Virus record (IMG/VR): IMGVR_UViG_2778261570_000016
Strand: one strand, 5' to 3'
Length of the DNA stretch: 27,732 bases
Origin: a virus
Taxonomy: Duplodnaviria > Heunggongvirae > Uroviricota > Caudoviricetes
Shown here: in pieces, positions 13,078 to 18,451 of the stretch
Layout: each line of letters opens with the position of its first letter
How positions within the stretch are numbered: the stretch's first letter is position 1
The notes under the pieces: generated by a model
What the model saw: only the letters and a program-made list of their open reading frames with translations
The model's database searches: none
What the model was told of the DNA's origin: nothing
Translations under genes and position numbers: made by a program

Positions 13078-14008
13078 GGAATTAGCCGAACAGCACAGTT
13101 CGCAGCTCTCGTCCGTTCTTAAATCCGCAGTTGAAACCATCTCGTCAGACCAGGAAATCACGTTCAGGCTCTATGTCCGGCAGGTTCTGCCGCTGGATGG
13201 CTTTGTCTATTGGGTTAATGCGGAAATCATCAGTTGCGATGAACTGTGTCGCCTGAATATTGAGTCACCAACTCGTCTGAAAATCAAAGGCAGCCTGCAT
13301 CGTCAGGTTATTGCGATTCAGGACGAGTCTGTCTCGAAGGATGTGAACAACATTATTTTCACGCCTGTTCAGCAGGTTGATGATTTTAATGTGGAAAATC
13401 CCGATGCGATCTATCTCGGTGAGTACGGCGGCGTCCAGTTCGCTTTTTCTCGAATGGAGAGCCGCTATCAGCAGTCGGGTATTTTTCATTATCGCGGCAT
13501 GGCGATTTTGCCAACCATGCGTTCCCAGATTATCGACTGCGAGGAGGATATCAGCGACGAGCAGATCATCTCCAACAGCATTCCGATCTGGCTGCAAATG
13601 AAAGATGCCGCGACCGTGTATCCGTCTTACCTGGTACCTCAGAACCTTCGTCCTCCGTATATCGCGGTGGATGTTCGCAACAGTATTCCGTTGCAGGTGG
13701 CTCCCGTTGTTTTCGGTGGTGAGCGATTCCAGCTCGTCCAGGATTCGGTTCGCCTGACGCTTTACGGATTCAGTAACAAAATGGCGCTGGATCTTGTCGA
13801 CTCGGTGGTGAACAGGGCGCTGGAGGAGGAAAAGTTTGGTGTAACCAATATTCCGGTGGTTCAGGACGCAAAGTCGGGACAGGTTGAAATCAACGCTCTG
13901 GCGAAGAAAAAGATTGTCGATTTTGACGTGAATTACTACCAGAGCACCGCCCGGGAAATATCCCGGCAGTTGATTGAAAAAGTTATTTGTAAATATGAGG
14001 TTAAATAA
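13064..14008 (+). CDS. Hypothetical tail completion / neck protein
   Basis: 314 aa directly upstream of the sheath gene; stop overlaps the sheath start (TAATG). Confidence 0.5.
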   Translation: MPSLEELAEQHSSQLSSVLKSAVETISSDQEITFRLYVRQVLPLDGFVYWVNAEIISCDELCRLNIESPTRLKIKGSLHRQVIAIQDESVSKDVNNIIFTPVQQVDDFNVENPDAIYLGEYGGVQFAFSRMESRYQQSGIFHYRGMAILPTMRSQIIDCEEDISDEQIISNSIPIWLQMKDAATVYPSYLVPQNLRPPYIAVDVRNSIPLQVAPVVFGGERFQLVQDSVRLTLYGFSNKMALDLVDSVVNRALEEEKFGVTNIPVVQDAKSGQVEINALAKKKIVDFDVNYYQSTAREISRQLIEKVICKYEVK

Positions 14009-15345
14009 TGGGATTTAATATCGTCACGGTGAATGTGTCCCAGACCATCGGGGCCATACCCTCGAATTTGCAGCAGATGTCTGCGGTTCTCTCGTTTGGC
14101 TCCACGACTCATGAGCCGGGGAAGCCTGTATTACTCACCCGTAATCAGGATATTAACGATCTGGTAAGAAATCCGATTGCTGCGTTGTCGGCGGCTGCTG
14201 CAGGAAAATCTGTGGCAAACGTCACCGTTACGATGACGCTTCCGGAAGGGAGCAACATCCGACGCGAAAACAGTTCTGAGGTGAAAATTGTTGTTTCCGG
14301 GTGTTCGCCCGACGCGTGGAATGGCAAATATACTGCTACCGTCACGGATGAAAAAACACTGACCTGGACGATTGCTGATTCTCAGCTTTCCGGTTCGCCA
14401 GTGACACTGGGGCAGTTTTCCATTGTCGGCAGTGAAAATCTGGTGACGGCAGTAAACACGTTTTTTGCCCAGGGAAATTCAGTCGGGATTTACCTGCTGG
14501 AGCTGGGAGTACAGAAAGGCGGGGTCAGTAAGGAAATCGCTGCACTGAAAGCTTATATGGAAGATCCGCTCCTGCGTTTTTATGCGTATCTGGTGCCGCA
14601 GCCGTGGGATGGTGACGCAGAATTTATCAGTCTGGCAAAACTCCACACCGCCAACGAAGCGATGCAGTATTTCTTCGTGCTGACGAAAACGCCAGACGAC
14701 ACGAATTACGTTTCGCCTTATGCCGGTATTAAGTCGGTTATTGCAACGGCGGATGATACGTACCCGGCGACAAACGCGGCAGCAGCCGTAATGTGGAACT
14801 ATGTTTCCGCATCACCTTCAGAAATCAACAAGGTGCCGCCGATGGCATTTCGCTATCTGCAGGCGGTAAACGCCCACAAGGGCAAAAATTCCATTCTGGC
14901 CACGATGACAAAGCAGAATATTAACTACGTCGATACGGGTGCTGAGGGTGGAATTTCCAACACGATTCTGGTGAAAGGCGTTACCAGTGACGGTAACGAT
15001 ATGACGTACTGGTATTCCGTAGACTGGGTGCAGATTAACGTCGATATGCAGCTCGCCAACACGGTGATCAACGGCAGCAATAACCCAATTAACCCGCTTT
15101 ACTACAACCAGGACGGAATCGACCGTCTACAGCAGGTCGCACAGGCGGTGTTCAATACGGGCGTATCTTACGGCCTGGTCAACGGCCAGCCTGTCGTCGA
15201 TGCAGTGCCTTTCCGCCAGTATATCAACACTAATCCGAATGATTACGGTATCGGGCGTTATGCAGGCCTTTCGGCCTCCTATACGCCGATGCGCGGATTT
15301 GTCGAAATCATTTTTAACATCAATGTGACAATGCAGCTTTCGTGA
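14008..15345 (+). CDS. Tail sheath protein (contractile tail)
   Basis: 445 aa gene immediately upstream of a tube-sized gene, a frameshifted chaperone pair and the tape measure; the canonical myovirus order. Confidence 0.6.
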   Translation: MGFNIVTVNVSQTIGAIPSNLQQMSAVLSFGSTTHEPGKPVLLTRNQDINDLVRNPIAALSAAAAGKSVANVTVTMTLPEGSNIRRENSSEVKIVVSGCSPDAWNGKYTATVTDEKTLTWTIADSQLSGSPVTLGQFSIVGSENLVTAVNTFFAQGNSVGIYLLELGVQKGGVSKEIAALKAYMEDPLLRFYAYLVPQPWDGDAEFISLAKLHTANEAMQYFFVLTKTPDDTNYVSPYAGIKSVIATADDTYPATNAAAAVMWNYVSASPSEINKVPPMAFRYLQAVNAHKGKNSILATMTKQNINYVDTGAEGGISNTILVKGVTSDGNDMTYWYSVDWVQINVDMQLANTVINGSNNPINPLYYNQDGIDRLQQVAQAVFNTGVSYGLVNGQPVVDAVPFRQYINTNPNDYGIGRYAGLSASYTPMRGFVEIIFNINVTMQLS

Positions 15346-15356
15346 GGGACTGAACC

Positions 15357-15800
15357 GTGCCTAATCCAATGATCCCCGTTGGCACCCTTAACCGGGTTCG
15401 CGCCAGCGTTAAATTCACCTCTCATCCCGAACTGAATGTGTCCGCCTCATTTCTGGCAAAAGAAGGCGTCGAATTGTCCTTTCAGGGCAATATCACGGAG
15501 TTTTTACCCGCTATGACGGGAGCCGTGCAGTCGCCGCAGCCATACATGATTTTACAGGCGCGTGTTCATCTGTTGCGTAGCCAGGCGCTGGGAAAACAAT
15601 TCAAGGCGCAATGGGAAAAGAATGCCACGATCGGCCACGCAAAAGTGTATAGCGACAGCACGGTATTCGGTGACTTCGATATCTATAACACGGCGATCAC
15701 CAACGTGCAGGATATGACCTTCGCCGGGGGCGAGCCGGGTGTGGCCATCACCATTACCGGTACGTATTACATCAACTCTGAAATGTGGGATCTGGTATGA
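15357..15800 (+). CDS. Tail tube protein
   Basis: 147 aa; between sheath and chaperone; GTG start with AGGGA RBS (alternative ATG at 15369). Confidence 0.55.
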   Translation: MPNPMIPVGTLNRVRASVKFTSHPELNVSASFLAKEGVELSFQGNITEFLPAMTGAVQSPQPYMILQARVHLLRSQALGKQFKAQWEKNATIGHAKVYSDSTVFGDFDIYNTAITNVQDMTFAGGEPGVAITITGTYYINSEMWDLV

Positions 15801-16414
15801 AAATCTCCCGAAATCTGAATCTGATTATTCCTGTCCGGACAGAAAAGGGTAACGGCTGGATCCATGCCACGCCGATCAGCAAAGAGGTGTTTAAAGAGCA
15901 TTTCTTCATTCTGAGTAAAACTTTTTCTGCCATTTTTTCTGAAGGTCTTGGCGTCGTTGCGGGTCCGCGTATCGCCTGCCTTATGCTGGAACGGATCTCC
16001 TCAGATATGAACATCTGGGATGGCGAAAAGGGCGTTCGTAATACGCTCGTGAATGAAATCATTCGCCTTGCGAATCTGGTTTACCCAGTCGAAGGGAAAG
16101 GTTATGACACGCTCCCGCTTGATATGGCGCTGGAGCGCGGCATCGTTGAATTTGATGATGTGGCAGGTGAACTCGTTTTTTTTACATGCGTCTCGTCGAT
16201 AAACACACCGGAGCAGACGGAGCAGATGATGCTGGCAGTCAGTGGAATGTGGAACAGTCGCACTTCATCCTTGAGTCTTACGGAATGGATTGCTTCATTG
16301 CCGACATTGAAGCCTGTCGCCAGTTCTGGCGCGACGGCGAGCACGTTATCAGCGACATCCTCGACTACTCAGCCGGAGACGGATTCAGCGACATCTGGGC
16401 AAATTCCGGTCTGA
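15797..16414 (+). CDS. Tail assembly chaperone (zero-frame product)
   Basis: ATGA overlap with the tube stop; located immediately upstream of the tape measure; contains a slippery T-run with an overlapping -1 frame. Confidence 0.6.
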   Translation: MKISRNLNLIIPVRTEKGNGWIHATPISKEVFKEHFFILSKTFSAIFSEGLGVVAGPRIACLMLERISSDMNIWDGEKGVRNTLVNEIIRLANLVYPVEGKGYDTLPLDMALERGIVEFDDVAGELVFFTCVSSINTPEQTEQMMLAVSGMWNSRTSSLSLTEWIASLPTLKPVASSGATASTLSATSSTTQPETDSATSGQIPV

Positions 16415-16488
16415 ATGTAAAAACAGCAGCTCAGTTTCGTGAGCTGCGTAAATGCACGACGCCGGGAGGGATATTGAATGTCAGGTAA
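16171..16488 (+). CDS. Tail assembly chaperone -1 frameshift extension (G-T-like fusion C-terminal part)
   Basis: -1 frame open from just upstream of the slippery site to 16488; the ORF-track entry 16186..16488 has no RBS of its own and is embedded. Confidence 0.45.
   Translation, partial: TRFFYMRLVDKHTGADGADDAGSQWNVEQSHFILESYGMDCFIADIEACRQFWRDGEHVISDILDYSAGDGFSDIWANSGLNVKTAAQFRELRKCTTPGGILNVR
16177..16183 (+). other. Candidate -1 programmed ribosomal frameshift slippery heptamer T TTT TTT
   Basis: In the chaperone frame the codons are GTT TTT TTT ACA. The -1 frame has a TGA at 16168-16170 and is then open through to 16488, overlapping the tape measure start. Confidence 0.5.
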
Positions 16489-18451
16489 TCAGATGCCAGT
16501 TCTGACACTGGACGTTAATGAAGAACACCTTAAGCGACTTGAGGCGATATTTGAAAAGTATCGCAATGGGCTGATGATTGGCCCTGCGGGGACGCCGCTT
16601 AAAATACCTTCAAATACAGGTCCAGGAGGTGGCACGCAGCAGGCAACCGCGGGCGGAGAAGCCAATCAGGCTCCCAGGAAACCATCTTCACCTGCGCCCA
16701 CCGATGGACGTTTAAGGGATGAAAAAGGGCGCTTTGTCGGTAGCGGAAAAACACCTGATTCGCTGGTGAGCAACTATAAAGGTCGCGGCGAAACGATGTT
16801 TGATAAGTACCTCAACGGGCTGGGTAAAAACGCTCAGGGGACGCTGAAAACTTACAAACAGATCAATTCAACGCTTAAAACGACTAATTCCCGGTTAAAA
16901 AGCCTGTTTAAAACCACGGTTTCGTGGGGGGCGAAAATAGCTGCAATAGGGGTTGCGGGGCCGTTTGGCTACGGCTATATGGCAAGTAAAGTCGCAGCAC
17001 AGTATAGCGTGGCTCAGGGGTTAGGGATGGAAACCGCCCAAATGCAGGCCGCACGTGCCACCTATTCGCCATATTTTTCTGGCACAGAAGAACTGGTTCA
17101 GCATCTGGCGAACGCACAGAAAAATCCAAACGATCCAAACTATGCTGGTCTGGTTAGTCTTGGAATTGATCCGCGAGATGGTGCAGCAAAGAATCTGCCC
17201 AAACTTATGAGTGCGCTTGCATCTCTAGTTAAGCAATATAAAGGTTCAGGACTTACTCAGGGGATTCTCAACGGACAAGGACTTGGATTTGTTGATGTCG
17301 CGACAACTAACCAGGTGGAAGCGAATCTGGACAAGATCCCCCAACTGAATGAGAAATTTGCAGCAAATACCCGGTTACTCGGCGCTTACCTCACGCCAGC
17401 TATGCAGTCAGGTTATCAGGACACGGTGAGTAACCTGATGGTAAATGGAAACAGAATATCAAATTCCTGGTATGCAGCTCTCGCCAGATATAACCCACTA
17501 ATCAGAGGTGCATCAGATGGACTGACATCCAATATTGAAGGTTTTCTGAATGGTGGAAATTTTAAAAAAATTCTCACTGAGGCTGGCGAAGGGCTGGAGA
17601 AACTTGGTAAGTGGCTGAATAGCGAACAATTTAAAAATGATCTTGACGATTTTTCTCTGGCGGTGAGTCGGATTGCAAAAGCAATATGGTCAGCTATCAA
17701 ATGGATCGGTGGGGGAGATAAATATCTCCCCGGAACCGGAGTTGGTGCTGAACAGGCAGATCCAGTTCTTGCGGCATTTGGGAATAAATATCTCGGTGGT
17801 GCGTTGCCGGGAGCAAACCCGATGACAAATCAGTATACGGGTGAGTTTTATAAACAGGATGATGTATATAAAAATTACCGTATGCCTAATGATTTAAAGA
17901 GAAATATTCAGAACTTTGTAGAGCAAACCAATAATACTTATCGACTTCCTAAAAATATGATGTCAGCTATCGCGGAGGTTGAATCTTCGTGGAATCCTCT
18001 GGCAAGAGGAACTCCAGATGAAAAAGGTAGATTCGCTAAGGGGTTGTGGCAATTCTGGGATAGCACCGCAAAACAGTATGGTCTGGTGGGTGATGATGTT
18101 TATGACCCAAATAAATCCACTCTTGCGGCTGGCCGCTTTTTAAATGATCTGAATCGGCGTTATAAAGGCGATGTGGCAAAAATGCTTACGGCATATAACG
18201 GAGGTCGTATTGATAGAGATGGAAATCTAAGTTTGAGAATGGAGACTGTAAAATATTTAATTAAATTATTGCCTCAGATACAGGGAGCCTTGGATCAACA
18301 CCCTGGTATTATGAATCAGCTAAGAAATGCCAGAGATAACCTTCAGGGTGCTGGCAAAAATGCCCGCGCAATAATTGAGCTTCAGGTGCGACAATCGCCG
18401 GGTTCCGACATACTGGCACAACTCGCCGGAACGCAACAAATACCGGGGTAA
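16478..18451 (+). CDS. Tail tape measure protein with C-terminal lytic transglycosylase (SLT) domain
   Basis: 657 aa directly after the chaperone pair; C-terminal region has SLT-type motifs (AEVESSWNP with catalytic Glu-Ser, GLWQF, AYNGG); N-terminal Gly/Pro-rich and helical stretches. Confidence 0.7.
   Translation: MSGNQMPVLTLDVNEEHLKRLEAIFEKYRNGLMIGPAGTPLKIPSNTGPGGGTQQATAGGEANQAPRKPSSPAPTDGRLRDEKGRFVGSGKTPDSLVSNYKGRGETMFDKYLNGLGKNAQGTLKTYKQINSTLKTTNSRLKSLFKTTVSWGAKIAAIGVAGPFGYGYMASKVAAQYSVAQGLGMETAQMQAARATYSPYFSGTEELVQHLANAQKNPNDPNYAGLVSLGIDPRDGAAKNLPKLMSALASLVKQYKGSGLTQGILNGQGLGFVDVATTNQVEANLDKIPQLNEKFAANTRLLGAYLTPAMQSGYQDTVSNLMVNGNRISNSWYAALARYNPLIRGASDGLTSNIEGFLNGGNFKKILTEAGEGLEKLGKWLNSEQFKNDLDDFSLAVSRIAKAIWSAIKWIGGGDKYLPGTGVGAEQADPVLAAFGNKYLGGALPGANPMTNQYTGEFYKQDDVYKNYRMPNDLKRNIQNFVEQTNNTYRLPKNMMSAIAEVESSWNPLARGTPDEKGRFAKGLWQFWDSTAKQYGLVGDDVYDPNKSTLAAGRFLNDLNRRYKGDVAKMLTAYNGGRIDRDGNLSLRMETVKYLIKLLPQIQGALDQHPGIMNQLRNARDNLQGAGKNARAIIELQVRQSPGSDILAQLAGTQQIPG

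What the first reader, a model, noticed from the sequence alone, without database searches (positions are those of the whole stretch)
16168..16488. Programmed -1 frameshift site in the tail assembly chaperone (G/GT-like)
Within the chaperone gene an 8-T run gives the heptamer T TTT TTT in the zero frame. The -1 frame carries a stop (TGA 16168-16170) just upstream and is then open for about 100 codons, ending 10 nt after the tape measure start. This is the conserved chaperone frameshift architecture of tailed phages and would yield a fusion of about 230 aa that a standard gene caller will miss or mis-annotate as a separate 100 aa ORF.
Basis: partly seen in the sequence, partly recalled or inferred. 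Interest (0 to 1): 0.5.

Follow-up and report, generated by a model that had tools for sequence, protein, structure and literature searches.

The report
Tail chaperone frameshift site, mid-gene
A run of T's inside a prophage tail-assembly gene is a conserved ribosome-slippage site that lets one gene make two proteins with different back halves; the trick is well known in phages, but here it sits unusually far from the gene's end and has never been annotated in this phage group.

Summary
The in-phase heptamer T_TTT_TTT lies at 16177-16183 in the 205-aa gene 15797-16414, between the tube gene and the tape-measure gene of a myovirus-type prophage. The -1 frame is closed by TGA 16168-70. It is then open to 16488, 10 nt past the tape-measure ATG, giving a 230-aa fusion.

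Comparative evidence supports a programmed -1 shift:
- The heptamer is kept in about 130 distinct close relatives and in lineages down to about 30% protein identity. Neighbouring synonymous sites vary freely.
- The -1 ORF encodes a conserved helical domain. In 8 of 10 divergent lineages no start codon precedes that domain.
- Synonymous resampling makes chance maintenance of both open frames very unlikely.
- Variants with T7, T6 or T4 keep the in-phase U_UUY tetramer. This favours ribosomal over transcriptional slippage, which is not excluded.

The architecture differs from lambda G/GT:
- The slip site is at codon 129 of 205, inside a predicted helix.
- The zero frame continues for 76 conserved codons: a folded segment, a disordered tail and a C-terminal [IVL]-P-[S/H/T] motif.
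- The shift therefore swaps C-terminal modules across a conserved 59-76-codon dual-coding overlap.

No curated family or solved structure matches. All examined records call the protein hypothetical.

The parts
15797..16414 (+). Zero-frame gene (205 aa), the G-like short product. Residues 1-129 are shared with the fusion. Residues 130-170 are a G-specific folded segment, 171-202 a disordered S/T/A/G-rich tail, and 203-205 the terminal I-P-V motif.
   Evidence: ORF list. Annotated as a 205-aa hypothetical protein in KU052037, PP818812 and NZ_CP128979. Matches phrog_11810. AF2 model has pLDDT 83: folded to about residue 167, residues 173-198 below 50. The tail is conserved in distant members (A1). 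The C-terminal [IVL]P[SHT] motif is seen in about half of the cluster representatives.
16177..16183 (+). Slippery heptamer T_TTT_TTT in phase with the zero frame, within the T8 run 16176-16183. This is the proposed site of tandem -1 slippage of tRNA-Phe.
   Evidence: Sequence. Only in-phase heptamer where the -1 frame is open. Invariant in 58 of 59 distinct close relatives, the exception being T_TTT_TTC. Kept as T8 or T7 in distant lineages and cultured phages.
16168..16170 (+). TGA stop in the -1 frame. It is the upstream bound of the window in which a shift can be productive.
   Evidence: In relatives the -1 frame opens only 4-17 codons before the slip site in 9 of 10 lineages.
16183..16488 (+). 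-1 frame segment read after the shift (101 codons plus stop). It comprises a variable linker (about residues 130-156 of the fusion) and a conserved helical T-like domain (about 16264-16485).
   Evidence: Translation. Matches phrog_14324. Alignment A2 has invariant Y162, G163, G196, F197 and R215 across 30-39% identical fusions. AF2 of fusion P0001 shows a disordered linker at 136-150 and helices at 147-221. Third-position diversity peak switches to the -1 frame from about 16337.
16184..16414 (+). Dual-coding overlap of 231 nt, in which the zero frame and the -1 frame are both open and both constrained.
   Evidence: Codon-position diversity is 0.117/0.208/0.189 here against 0.116/0.083/0.427 upstream. 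The lowest diversity (0.08) is at 16277-16306, where the two conserved protein segments overlap. Synonymous resampling shows both frames are kept open against expectation.
16200..16202 (+). TAA stop in the +1/-2 frame. A shift in that direction would give a truncated ...VF-LHASRR product, presumably non-functional.
   Evidence: P0121 (139 aa) is such a T7 variant. +1-frame extensions are short and unconserved in distant lineages.
16165..16170 (+). AGGTGA, a Shine-Dalgarno-like hexamer 6 nt upstream of the heptamer. It is a possible 5' stimulator, not established.
   Evidence: Sequence. G-rich GGAG/GAGG/GGTGA motifs lie 6-12 nt upstream in several distant lineages, but they are confounded with conserved E-G-E/E-N residues. 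The hexamer is not invariant in close relatives.
16478..18451 (+). Tape-measure-position gene (657 aa) with a C-terminal SLT lytic transglycosylase domain. Its ATG is overlapped by the end of the -1 ORF.
   Evidence: Pfam SLT E = 3.5e-20. PHROG 'lytic tail protein'. The -1 ORF ends at or just past this start in every lineage examined.
15357..15800 (+). Tube-position gene (147 aa) directly upstream. The sheath gene lies at 14008-15345.
   Evidence: Sheath matches phrog_205 'tail sheath', E = 2e-53. The tube is assigned by synteny only.

Best explanation
The gene between the tube and tape-measure genes of this myovirus-type prophage makes two proteins from one start codon.

Most ribosomes read straight through and make a 205-aa protein. 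This has:
- an N-terminal domain (residues 1-129);
- about 40 more folded residues;
- a roughly 30-residue disordered tail;
- a conserved terminal hydrophobic-Pro-Ser/Thr/His motif.

A minority of ribosomes slip back one nucleotide. They do so with tRNA-Phe in the P and A sites on U_UUU_UUU (16177-16183). They continue in the -1 frame through a variable linker into a conserved ~70-residue helical domain and terminate just inside the tape-measure gene. The product is 230 aa. By analogy with lambda G/GT and P2 E/E+E', the shared N-domain would coat the tape-measure protein. The -1-encoded domain would recruit the tube (or sheath) subunit, and the slip frequency would fix the ratio of the two products.

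Shown here:
- the site and the two frames;
- conservation of both frames and of the in-phase heptamer;
- absence of an independent start for the -1 ORF;
- absence of a downstream RNA stimulator.

Inferred:
- that the shift is ribosomal rather than transcriptional;
- its efficiency;
- the chaperone role and the binding partners.
For: Conservation of the slip site:
- T_TTT_TTT is in phase and is the only slippery heptamer where the -1 frame is open.
- In the Rac-SA53-like clade, 58 of 59 distinct sequences have T8 and 1 has T_TTT_TTC.
- In the Chronis-like clade, 70 of 74 have T8 and 4 have G_TTT_TTT.
- Members at 30-45% identity, including the cultured Klebsiella, Yersinia, Pantoea and Shewanella phages, have T8 or exactly T7 (TGT/GCT TTT TTT).
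- The base upstream of the heptamer is free to vary. The 4-fold-degenerate third position that supplies X is always T.
- Rare T6 and T4 lineages still keep the in-phase U_UUU tetramer and an intact -1 ORF.

Fit to measured frameshift rules in E. coli:
- H_HH.U_UU.Y heptamers are among the efficient -1 motifs, and U_UU.Y tetramers rank second after A_AAG (PMC4066793).

Evidence that the -1 ORF is expressed only by shifting:
- It encodes a conserved domain (A2).
- In 8 of 10 lineages no ATG/GTG/TTG precedes that domain.

Evidence that both frames are under selection:
- Both frames are kept open against synonymous-resampling expectation.
- Codon-position diversity switches from the zero-frame pattern to the -1-frame pattern along the overlap.
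- The homology of 186-205-aa family members to a fusion query breaks exactly at residue ~130.

Context and precedent:
- Gene order is sheath, tube, this gene, SLT-bearing tape measure, hub.
- Frameshifting of this kind in tail chaperone genes is established (PMC5009743). Poly-T motifs are proposed for other myoviruses (PMC12846349).
Against: - There is no experimental evidence for either product.
- There is no stimulatory RNA structure downstream. The 100 nt after the site fold less well than shuffles (z = +1.75), and the alignment fold is -1.7 kcal/mol.
- U_UUU_UUU was much less shifty than A_AAA_AAG in E. coli constructs (PMC5009743).
- T8 is long enough for some RNA polymerase slippage, which would give the identical protein.
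- The site lies in the middle of a predicted helix of a folded domain. The fusion therefore lacks about 40 folded residues of the short product, unlike lambda GT.
Confidence: 0.75

Rival explanations
1. Transcriptional slippage. RNA polymerase stutters on the T8 tract and adds one U to a fraction of the mRNAs. Standard translation of those mRNAs then gives the same 230-aa fusion. Ribosomal slippage would contribute little or nothing.
For: - T8 is the commonest form of the site.
- UUUUUUU is under-represented in E. coli genes in all three frames, which has been attributed partly to transcriptional slippage (PMC4066793).
- Slippage at runs of 9 A or T is documented in bacteria (PMC5009743).
- There is no ribosomal stimulator structure.
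- A non-translational mechanism has been proposed for T4-like tail chaperones. This is known here only from the title of Vladimirov et al. 2022, cited in PMC12846349; the paper was not read.
Against: - The conserved unit is the in-phase heptamer, not the run length. Lineages with Cys or Ala upstream have exactly T7.
- One lineage has T7 followed by C.
- Subclades have T6 (G_TTT_TTT, C_TTT_TTT) or even TAT TTT, all with an intact -1 ORF. Such short runs should slip very little during transcription, but they retain the U_UUY tetramer needed by the ribosome.
Confidence: 0.13
2. Two independent genes. The 100-aa ORF 16186-16488 is translated from its own ATG at 16186, and the T-run is incidental.
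For: - An ATG lies immediately after the T-run in this window.
- Gene callers have called the ORF separately: phrog_14324, and the cluster representatives P0123 and P0126.
Against: - The ATG is not conserved. In 8 of 10 divergent lineages no ATG/GTG/TTG precedes the conserved domain, and one 111-codon -1 ORF has no start codon at all.
- There is no properly spaced ribosome-binding site. AGGTGA lies 15 nt upstream of the ATG.
- This reading does not explain the invariant synonymous positions of the heptamer.
Confidence: 0.03
3. DNA-level event. The T-run is a mutational or phase-variable homopolymer, or a sequencing error, and the real gene is a single unshifted ORF (T9 state). Alternatively the locus is a decaying pseudogene.
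For: - T9, T7 and T6 variants exist in public data. The T9 and T6 forms give direct fusions and the T7 form a truncation (L043, L075, L082, L083, P0001, P0121, P0124, P0127, P0132).
Against: - T8 is the state in about 128 of about 133 distinct sequences from two clades, in complete E. coli genomes and in four cultured phages.
- In the T9 variants the original zero-frame tail is still intact and conserved in the other frame. They are therefore recent changes or errors.
- The zero-frame tail is a conserved protein with a conserved C-terminus.
Confidence: 0.03
4. The -1 ORF is a non-functional by-product of the composition of the zero-frame gene, and the T-run is simply Val-Phe-Phe.
For: - Phe-Phe is invariant at the protein level (A1), so part of the T-run conservation is explained by the protein.
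Against: - Phe codons elsewhere toggle TTT/TTC freely, but not here.
- The -1 frame is open in every lineage. The per-lineage chance is 0.02-0.23, and the product over 10 lineages is about 1e-13.
- The -1 translation has invariant residues across 30% identity.
- Third-position relaxation follows the -1 frame from about 16337 onwards, including beyond the zero-frame stop.
Confidence: 0.01

Closest known systems
Phage lambda G/GT tail assembly chaperone -1 frameshift (Levin, Hendrix & Casjens 1993; Xu, Hendrix & Duda 2004, 2013, 2014; reviewed in PMC5009743)
   Same: - The gene pair sits immediately upstream of the tape-measure gene.
- The second frame is -1, has no start of its own, and is reached through an in-phase slippery heptamer.
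- No downstream RNA structure is evident here.
- Two products share an N-terminal domain.
- The -1 ORF ends next to the tape-measure start.
   Different: - The heptamer is U_UUU_UUU rather than G_GGA_AAG.
- The host virus has a contractile tail.
- The slip site is at 63% of the zero-frame ORF (codon 129 of 205) instead of a few codons before its stop.
- The long product therefore lacks 76 residues of the short one, and the two frames overlap for 231 nt.
- There is no detectable sequence or fold similarity.
Phage P2 E / E+E' (myovirus tail chaperone frameshift; noted in PMC5009743 as 2-3-fold more efficient than lambda; a T-rich slip site from my own recollection of Christie et al. 2002)
   Same: Myovirus tail module, a -1 shift on a T-rich heptamer, and products needed for assembly of a contractile tail.
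   Different: - In P2 the shift is near the end of the short E gene, giving an extension rather than a module swap.
- There is no homology to the protein here (not tested directly; Pfam and NCBIfam searches were negative).
Proposed GTTTTT frameshift in tail chaperone genes of Pakpunavirus/Vandenendeviridae and Andersonviridae myophages (PMC12846349)
   Same: - A poly-T slip motif is conserved across divergent genomes.
- The -1 frame is uninterrupted up to the tape-measure gene.
- The downstream ORF is routinely mis-annotated as a separate hypothetical gene.
- The argument is purely comparative.
   Different: - There the motif is at the 3' end of TAC-N.
- Here it is mid-gene, with a long conserved dual-coding overlap and a distinct conserved C-terminal module on the short product.
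Bacterial transcriptional slippage sites (Thermus dnaX A9; Shigella mxiE, spa13, mxiA, spa33; PMC5009743)
   Same: A homopolymeric A/T run inside a coding region yields a trans-frame fusion.
   Different: Those runs are typically 9 or more. Here the conserved element is a phased heptamer, and functional-looking lineages have T7, T6 or T4.

Membership tests
G/GT-type tail assembly chaperone frameshift (Xu, Hendrix & Duda 2004 definition) | Located between the major tail (tube) gene and the tape-measure gene | tested here: met
   Sheath (phrog_205) at 14008-15345, tube-position ORF at 15357-15800, this gene at 15797-16414, and the SLT-bearing 657-aa gene at 16478-18451, followed by a hub. The same order is seen in all fetched relatives.
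G/GT-type tail assembly chaperone frameshift (Xu, Hendrix & Duda 2004 definition) | A second ORF overlapping in the -1 frame, lacking its own start and extending to the tape-measure gene | tested here: met
   The -1 frame is open from 16171 to 16488. In 8 of 10 lineages no start codon precedes the conserved domain. The ORF ends at or past the tape-measure ATG in all lineages.
G/GT-type tail assembly chaperone frameshift (Xu, Hendrix & Duda 2004 definition) | An in-phase slippery sequence within the overlap, conserved among relatives | tested here: met
   T_TTT_TTT at 16177-16183. Census of relatives.
G/GT-type tail assembly chaperone frameshift (Xu, Hendrix & Duda 2004 definition) | [quoted passage not shown] | tested here: not met
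   76 zero-frame codons follow the site here, and the median in 127 cluster representatives is 59 (5th-95th percentile 53-87). The site lies inside predicted helix 119-135 of a domain folded to about residue 167.
G/GT-type tail assembly chaperone frameshift (Xu, Hendrix & Duda 2004 definition) | Two products made in a fixed ratio, both required for tail assembly and absent from virions | not testable with these tools
   Needs protein analysis and genetics.
Known tail assembly chaperone protein families (Pfam/NCBIfam TAC models; solved or predicted TAC structures) | Sequence or fold similarity to a curated TAC family | tested here: not met
   - Pfam and NCBIfam gave no hits for the zero-frame protein, the fusions or the -1 ORF.
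- The PDB profile search gave none.
- Foldseek against BFVD gave one significant hit, to an uncharacterised protein. TAC-labelled hits appeared only at E = 0.14-3.
Transcriptional slippage site | A homopolymer long enough for RNA polymerase realignment (about 9 or more A/T in documented bacterial cases), with run length rather than codon phase conserved | tested here: inconclusive
   T8 is seen in most sequences. However, T7, T6 and T4 lineages keep the -1 ORF, and it is the phased heptamer or tetramer that is conserved. The actual mRNA heterogeneity cannot be tested here.

The most novel reading that the evidence does not exclude
The frameshift is a branch point rather than an extension. One start codon feeds two alternative, separately conserved C-terminal modules encoded in a 59-76-codon overlapping dual-coding stretch.
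- The short product carries its own functional module that the long product must lack: a folded helix-strand-helix, a disordered spacer and a terminal [IVL]-P-[S/H/T] docking motif.
- The two isoforms would then have distinct partner specificities, instead of one being a superset of the other.
- This architecture is fixed across a large phage family that no database annotates (626 clusters at 50% identity).
Probability: 0.55. Interest if true: 0.55.

Novelty: new variant of a known kind. Interest (0 to 1): 0.42.

Why it matters
For annotation: a whole family of temperate myoviruses carries an essential-looking tail gene product that no examined record annotates. The family includes Rac-SA53-like prophages found in 93 of 5,426 complete E. 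coli genomes, and Klebsiella, Yersinia, Pantoea and Shewanella phages; it spans 626 protein clusters at 50% identity. The junction can now be specified to the nucleotide.

For biology: the family is a natural example of a long, deeply conserved dual-coding overlap in which the constrained parts of the two frames are largely staggered. It is also a chaperone pair in which the long isoform is not simply the short one plus a domain. This tests the lambda model, in which G and the G part of GT do the same job. It also offers natural T8/T7/T6/T4 site variants for separating ribosomal from transcriptional slippage.

Tried and rejected
- Downstream stimulatory RNA. A single-sequence fold of 16177-16276 is less stable than shuffles (z = +1.75). 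The small hairpin in 16184-16233 is not significant (z = -0.29). RNAalifold on 16 relatives gives -1.7 kcal/mol with no covariation. Rfam finds nothing in the window.
- T-run as the tail of an intrinsic terminator. There is no + strand terminator-like site in 15300-16700.
- Curated families. Pfam, NCBIfam and the PDB sequence profile were all negative.
The natural T9 fusion P0001 was used instead.
- The search for related loci with the divergent alignment A1 failed because no block was conserved enough. With P0136 it found nothing.
- Three encoding-contig look-ups returned no DNA.
- The +1-frame product was considered and rejected as functional. It is short and unconserved in all lineages.
- The Shine-Dalgarno-like AGGTGA upstream was considered as a stimulator. 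It could not be separated from the conserved Gly-Glu coding.

Full report
**1. Observation**

- The gene 15797-16414 (ATG, 205 aa) contains an 8-T run at 16176-16183.
- The zero-frame codons there are GTT TTT TTT (Val127-Phe128-Phe129). T_TTT_TTT at 16177-16183 is therefore an in-phase X_XXY_YYZ heptamer.
- The -1 frame carries TGA at 16168-16170 and is then open to a stop at 16486-16488.
- The next gene starts at ATG 16478, with GGGAGGG 8 nt upstream.
- A -1 shift gives 129 + 101 = 230 aa, with the junction ...GELVFF|YMRLVDK...
- It is the only in-phase slippery heptamer in the part of the gene where the -1 frame is open.
- The +1 frame stops after 6 codons.

**2. Context**

The window is a tailed-phage structural module. 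It encodes large terminase, portal, MuF-like protein, protease/scaffold, major capsid, sheath (phrog_205), a tube-position gene, this gene, a 657-aa tape-measure-position gene with an SLT domain, and a baseplate hub.

It is a prophage:
- 98% identical to Escherichia phage Rac-SA53;
- 99.6% identical to a prophage of E. coli TUM1881;
- present in 93 of 5,426 complete E. coli genomes.

All records annotate only the 205-aa ORF, as hypothetical. PHROGs holds the 205-aa protein and the 100-aa -1 ORF as two separate families of unknown function.

**3. Is it more than chance?**

One T8 run in 27.7 kb is not unusual in itself (1 found, 3.4 expected). Its conservation is.

Close relatives:
- 75 related loci have N-domain identity of 69-100%.
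- Among 59 distinct sequences, the three third-codon positions inside the run are T in 59, 59 and 58. The single exception is T_TTT_TTC.
- Only 4 of 126 upstream third positions are invariant, and the 5 aligned upstream Phe codons all toggle TTT/TTC.

A library-wide HMMER search was run with a natural T9 fusion (P0001):
- It found 626 clusters at 50% identity.
- Most are 186-205 aa.
- Their match to the fusion query ends exactly at residue ~130.

DNA from divergent members (30-45% identity) shows the same site:
- T8 in L077, L078, L080, L090 and L092, and in the cultured phages Klebsiella Chronis, Yersinia vB_YenM_21.09 and Shewanella QDWS.
- Exactly T7 where the preceding residue is Cys or Ala (Pantoea PdC23 TGT TTT TTT; L089 and L091 GCT TTT TTT).
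- T6 in L081 (ACC TTT TTT) and in 4 of 74 distinct Chronis-clade sequences (GTG TTT TTT).
- TAT TTT in one contig (L084).
- In every case the -1 ORF is intact and reaches the tape-measure start.

**4. Both frames encode protein**

Zero frame (alignment A1 of 14 distant proteins):
- F128 and F129 are invariant.
- The consensus continues after the site as ..VFFT.AS..HKK....L....LWG..T.LN.TEF..SL...
- A low-complexity tail follows.
- About half of 127 representatives then end in [IVL]-P-[S/H/T].

-1 frame (alignment A2 of 11 fusions at 30-39% identity):
- A variable ~30-residue linker comes first.
- A conserved domain follows (YG...F..DIDR.R.FWR.G....LDY...GF......EFRQR).
- Y162, G163, G196, F197 and R215 are invariant.

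Codon-position diversity:

| Region | Codon position 1 | Position 2 | Position 3 |
|---|---|---|---|
| Upstream of the site | 0.116 | 0.083 | 0.427 |
| Overlap (16186-16414) | 0.117 | 0.208 | 0.189 |

- The zero-frame pattern persists to about 16306.
- The -1-frame pattern dominates from about 16337, including past the zero-frame stop.
- Diversity is lowest (0.08) at 16277-16306, where the two conserved segments overlap.

Resampling of synonymous codons:
- With one frame's protein held fixed, the other frame stays open in only 2-23% of trials (-1 frame) or 1-54% of trials (zero frame) per lineage.
- The products over 10 lineages are about 1e-13 and about 1e-9. These are rough, because the lineages are not fully independent.

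**5. No independent start**

In 8 of 10 divergent lineages no ATG/GTG/TTG precedes the conserved domain of the -1 ORF. One 111-codon ORF has no start codon at all. The ATG at 16186 in this window is therefore incidental.

**6. Structure**

- AF2 of the 205-aa protein has pLDDT 83. It is an alpha/beta domain folded to about residue 167, disordered at 173-198. The slip site lies inside helix 119-135.
- The fusion model (P0001, pLDDT 73) keeps the N-domain, has a disordered linker at 136-150, and has a helical domain at 147-221.
- No solved or predicted structure matches convincingly.
- No Pfam, NCBIfam or PDB sequence family matches.
- The chaperone label therefore rests on position and architecture.

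**7. Mechanism**

I conclude that the site is a programmed -1 recoding site, most likely ribosomal.
- The conserved unit is the phased heptamer, not the run length.
- Degenerate lineages keep the in-phase U_UUU tetramer.
- In E. coli, H_HH.U_UU.Y heptamers are among the efficient -1 motifs. U_UU.Y tetramers rank second after A_AAG (PMC4066793).
- There is no downstream stimulatory structure, and nothing here points to a requirement for one.
- An upstream AGGTGA may help, but it cannot be separated from coding constraints.
- Transcriptional slippage on T8 would give the same protein and cannot be excluded. I give it about 0.13.

By analogy with lambda (PMC5009743), the shared N-domain would bind the tape-measure protein and the -1 domain would bind the tube subunit. 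This is inference.

**8. Comparison with what is known**

This works like G/GT and P2 E/E+E'. It meets the positional, frame, slippery-site and conservation criteria.

It fails the criterion that the site lies near the end of the short ORF:
- The shift occurs at 63% of the gene.
- It removes about 40 folded residues, a disordered tail and a conserved C-terminal motif, and replaces them with the T-like domain.
- The 59-76-codon dual-coding overlap is a fixed feature of the family. The zero-frame tail after the site has a median of 59 codons and a 5th-95th percentile range of 53-87.

None of the papers held on member phages mentions a frameshift or a chaperone.

I therefore rate it a new variant of a known kind. 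It is of moderate interest mainly for its branch-type architecture, the deep dual coding and the annotation gap.

**9. Side observations**

Homopolymer-length variants occur in public data:
- T9 and T6 give direct fusions, and T7 gives a truncation.
- In the T9 cases the displaced zero-frame tail is still intact. These are recent mutations or sequencing errors, not the native state.

Noticed in passing
window 16403-16411 (I-P-V, C-terminus of the 205-aa protein); also P0129-P0269: The zero-frame protein ends in a conserved [IVL]-P-[S/H/T] tripeptide after a 25-35-residue disordered S/T/G/A-rich spacer. This is seen in about half of 127 cluster representatives (IPS 15, VPS 15, VPH 5, LPS 5, IPH 5, and others). 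It looks like a terminal docking motif. Its partner is unknown.
   Followed up: partly
L043, L075, L082, L083; proteins P0001, P0121, P0124, P0127, P0130, P0132, P0213: Public assemblies contain T9, T6 (direct fusion) and T7 (truncated ...VFLHASRR) variants of the slip site. P0001 is seen on 6 contigs. In the T9 loci L082 and L083 the displaced zero-frame tail is still intact. Whether these are sequencing errors or real indel variants was not resolved.
   Followed up: partly
L002 (PP818812.1, Actinobacillus phage vB_Apl-pPE4): A phage recorded as infecting Actinobacillus pleuropneumoniae is 91.5% identical in DNA to this E. coli prophage across the tube-to-tape-measure stretch queried, with the same gene order from the sheath onwards. 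The host assignment looks doubtful.
   Followed up: no
hits H35/H36 (OK094664.1 and OP650936.1): Shewanella phage vB_Sb_QDWS and 'Hujiaoplasma phage zrk29-1' have the same record length (47,902 bp) and identical match statistics. They are probably one sequence deposited under two host names.
   Followed up: no
hits H8 and H13 (NZ_CP026085.1, NZ_CM135829.1): Two assemblies labelled E. coli DH5alpha (4.83 Mb) carry this prophage with the same identity as E. coli W, KO11FL and LY180. This suggests mislabelled W-lineage strains.
   Followed up: no
window 16478-18451: The tape-measure-position protein (657 aa) carries a lytic transglycosylase SLT domain at residues 482-578. The tail would thus bring its own peptidoglycan-cutting activity. 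Some records annotate the gene only as 'lytic transglycosylase' or 'lysis protein'.
   Followed up: partly
window 16184-16203: The 20 nt after the T-run (ACATGCGTCTCGTCGATAAA) are nearly invariant at all three codon positions in 59 distinct relatives. Dual coding can explain this, but a sequence-level role, such as a spacer or context effect on slippage, is not excluded.
   Followed up: partly
window 15919-15944: Two T6 runs lie in the same gene upstream (AAAACTTTTTTCTGCCATTTTTTCTG). The -1 frame is closed there and the third positions vary among relatives, so they appear to be incidental.
   Followed up: partly
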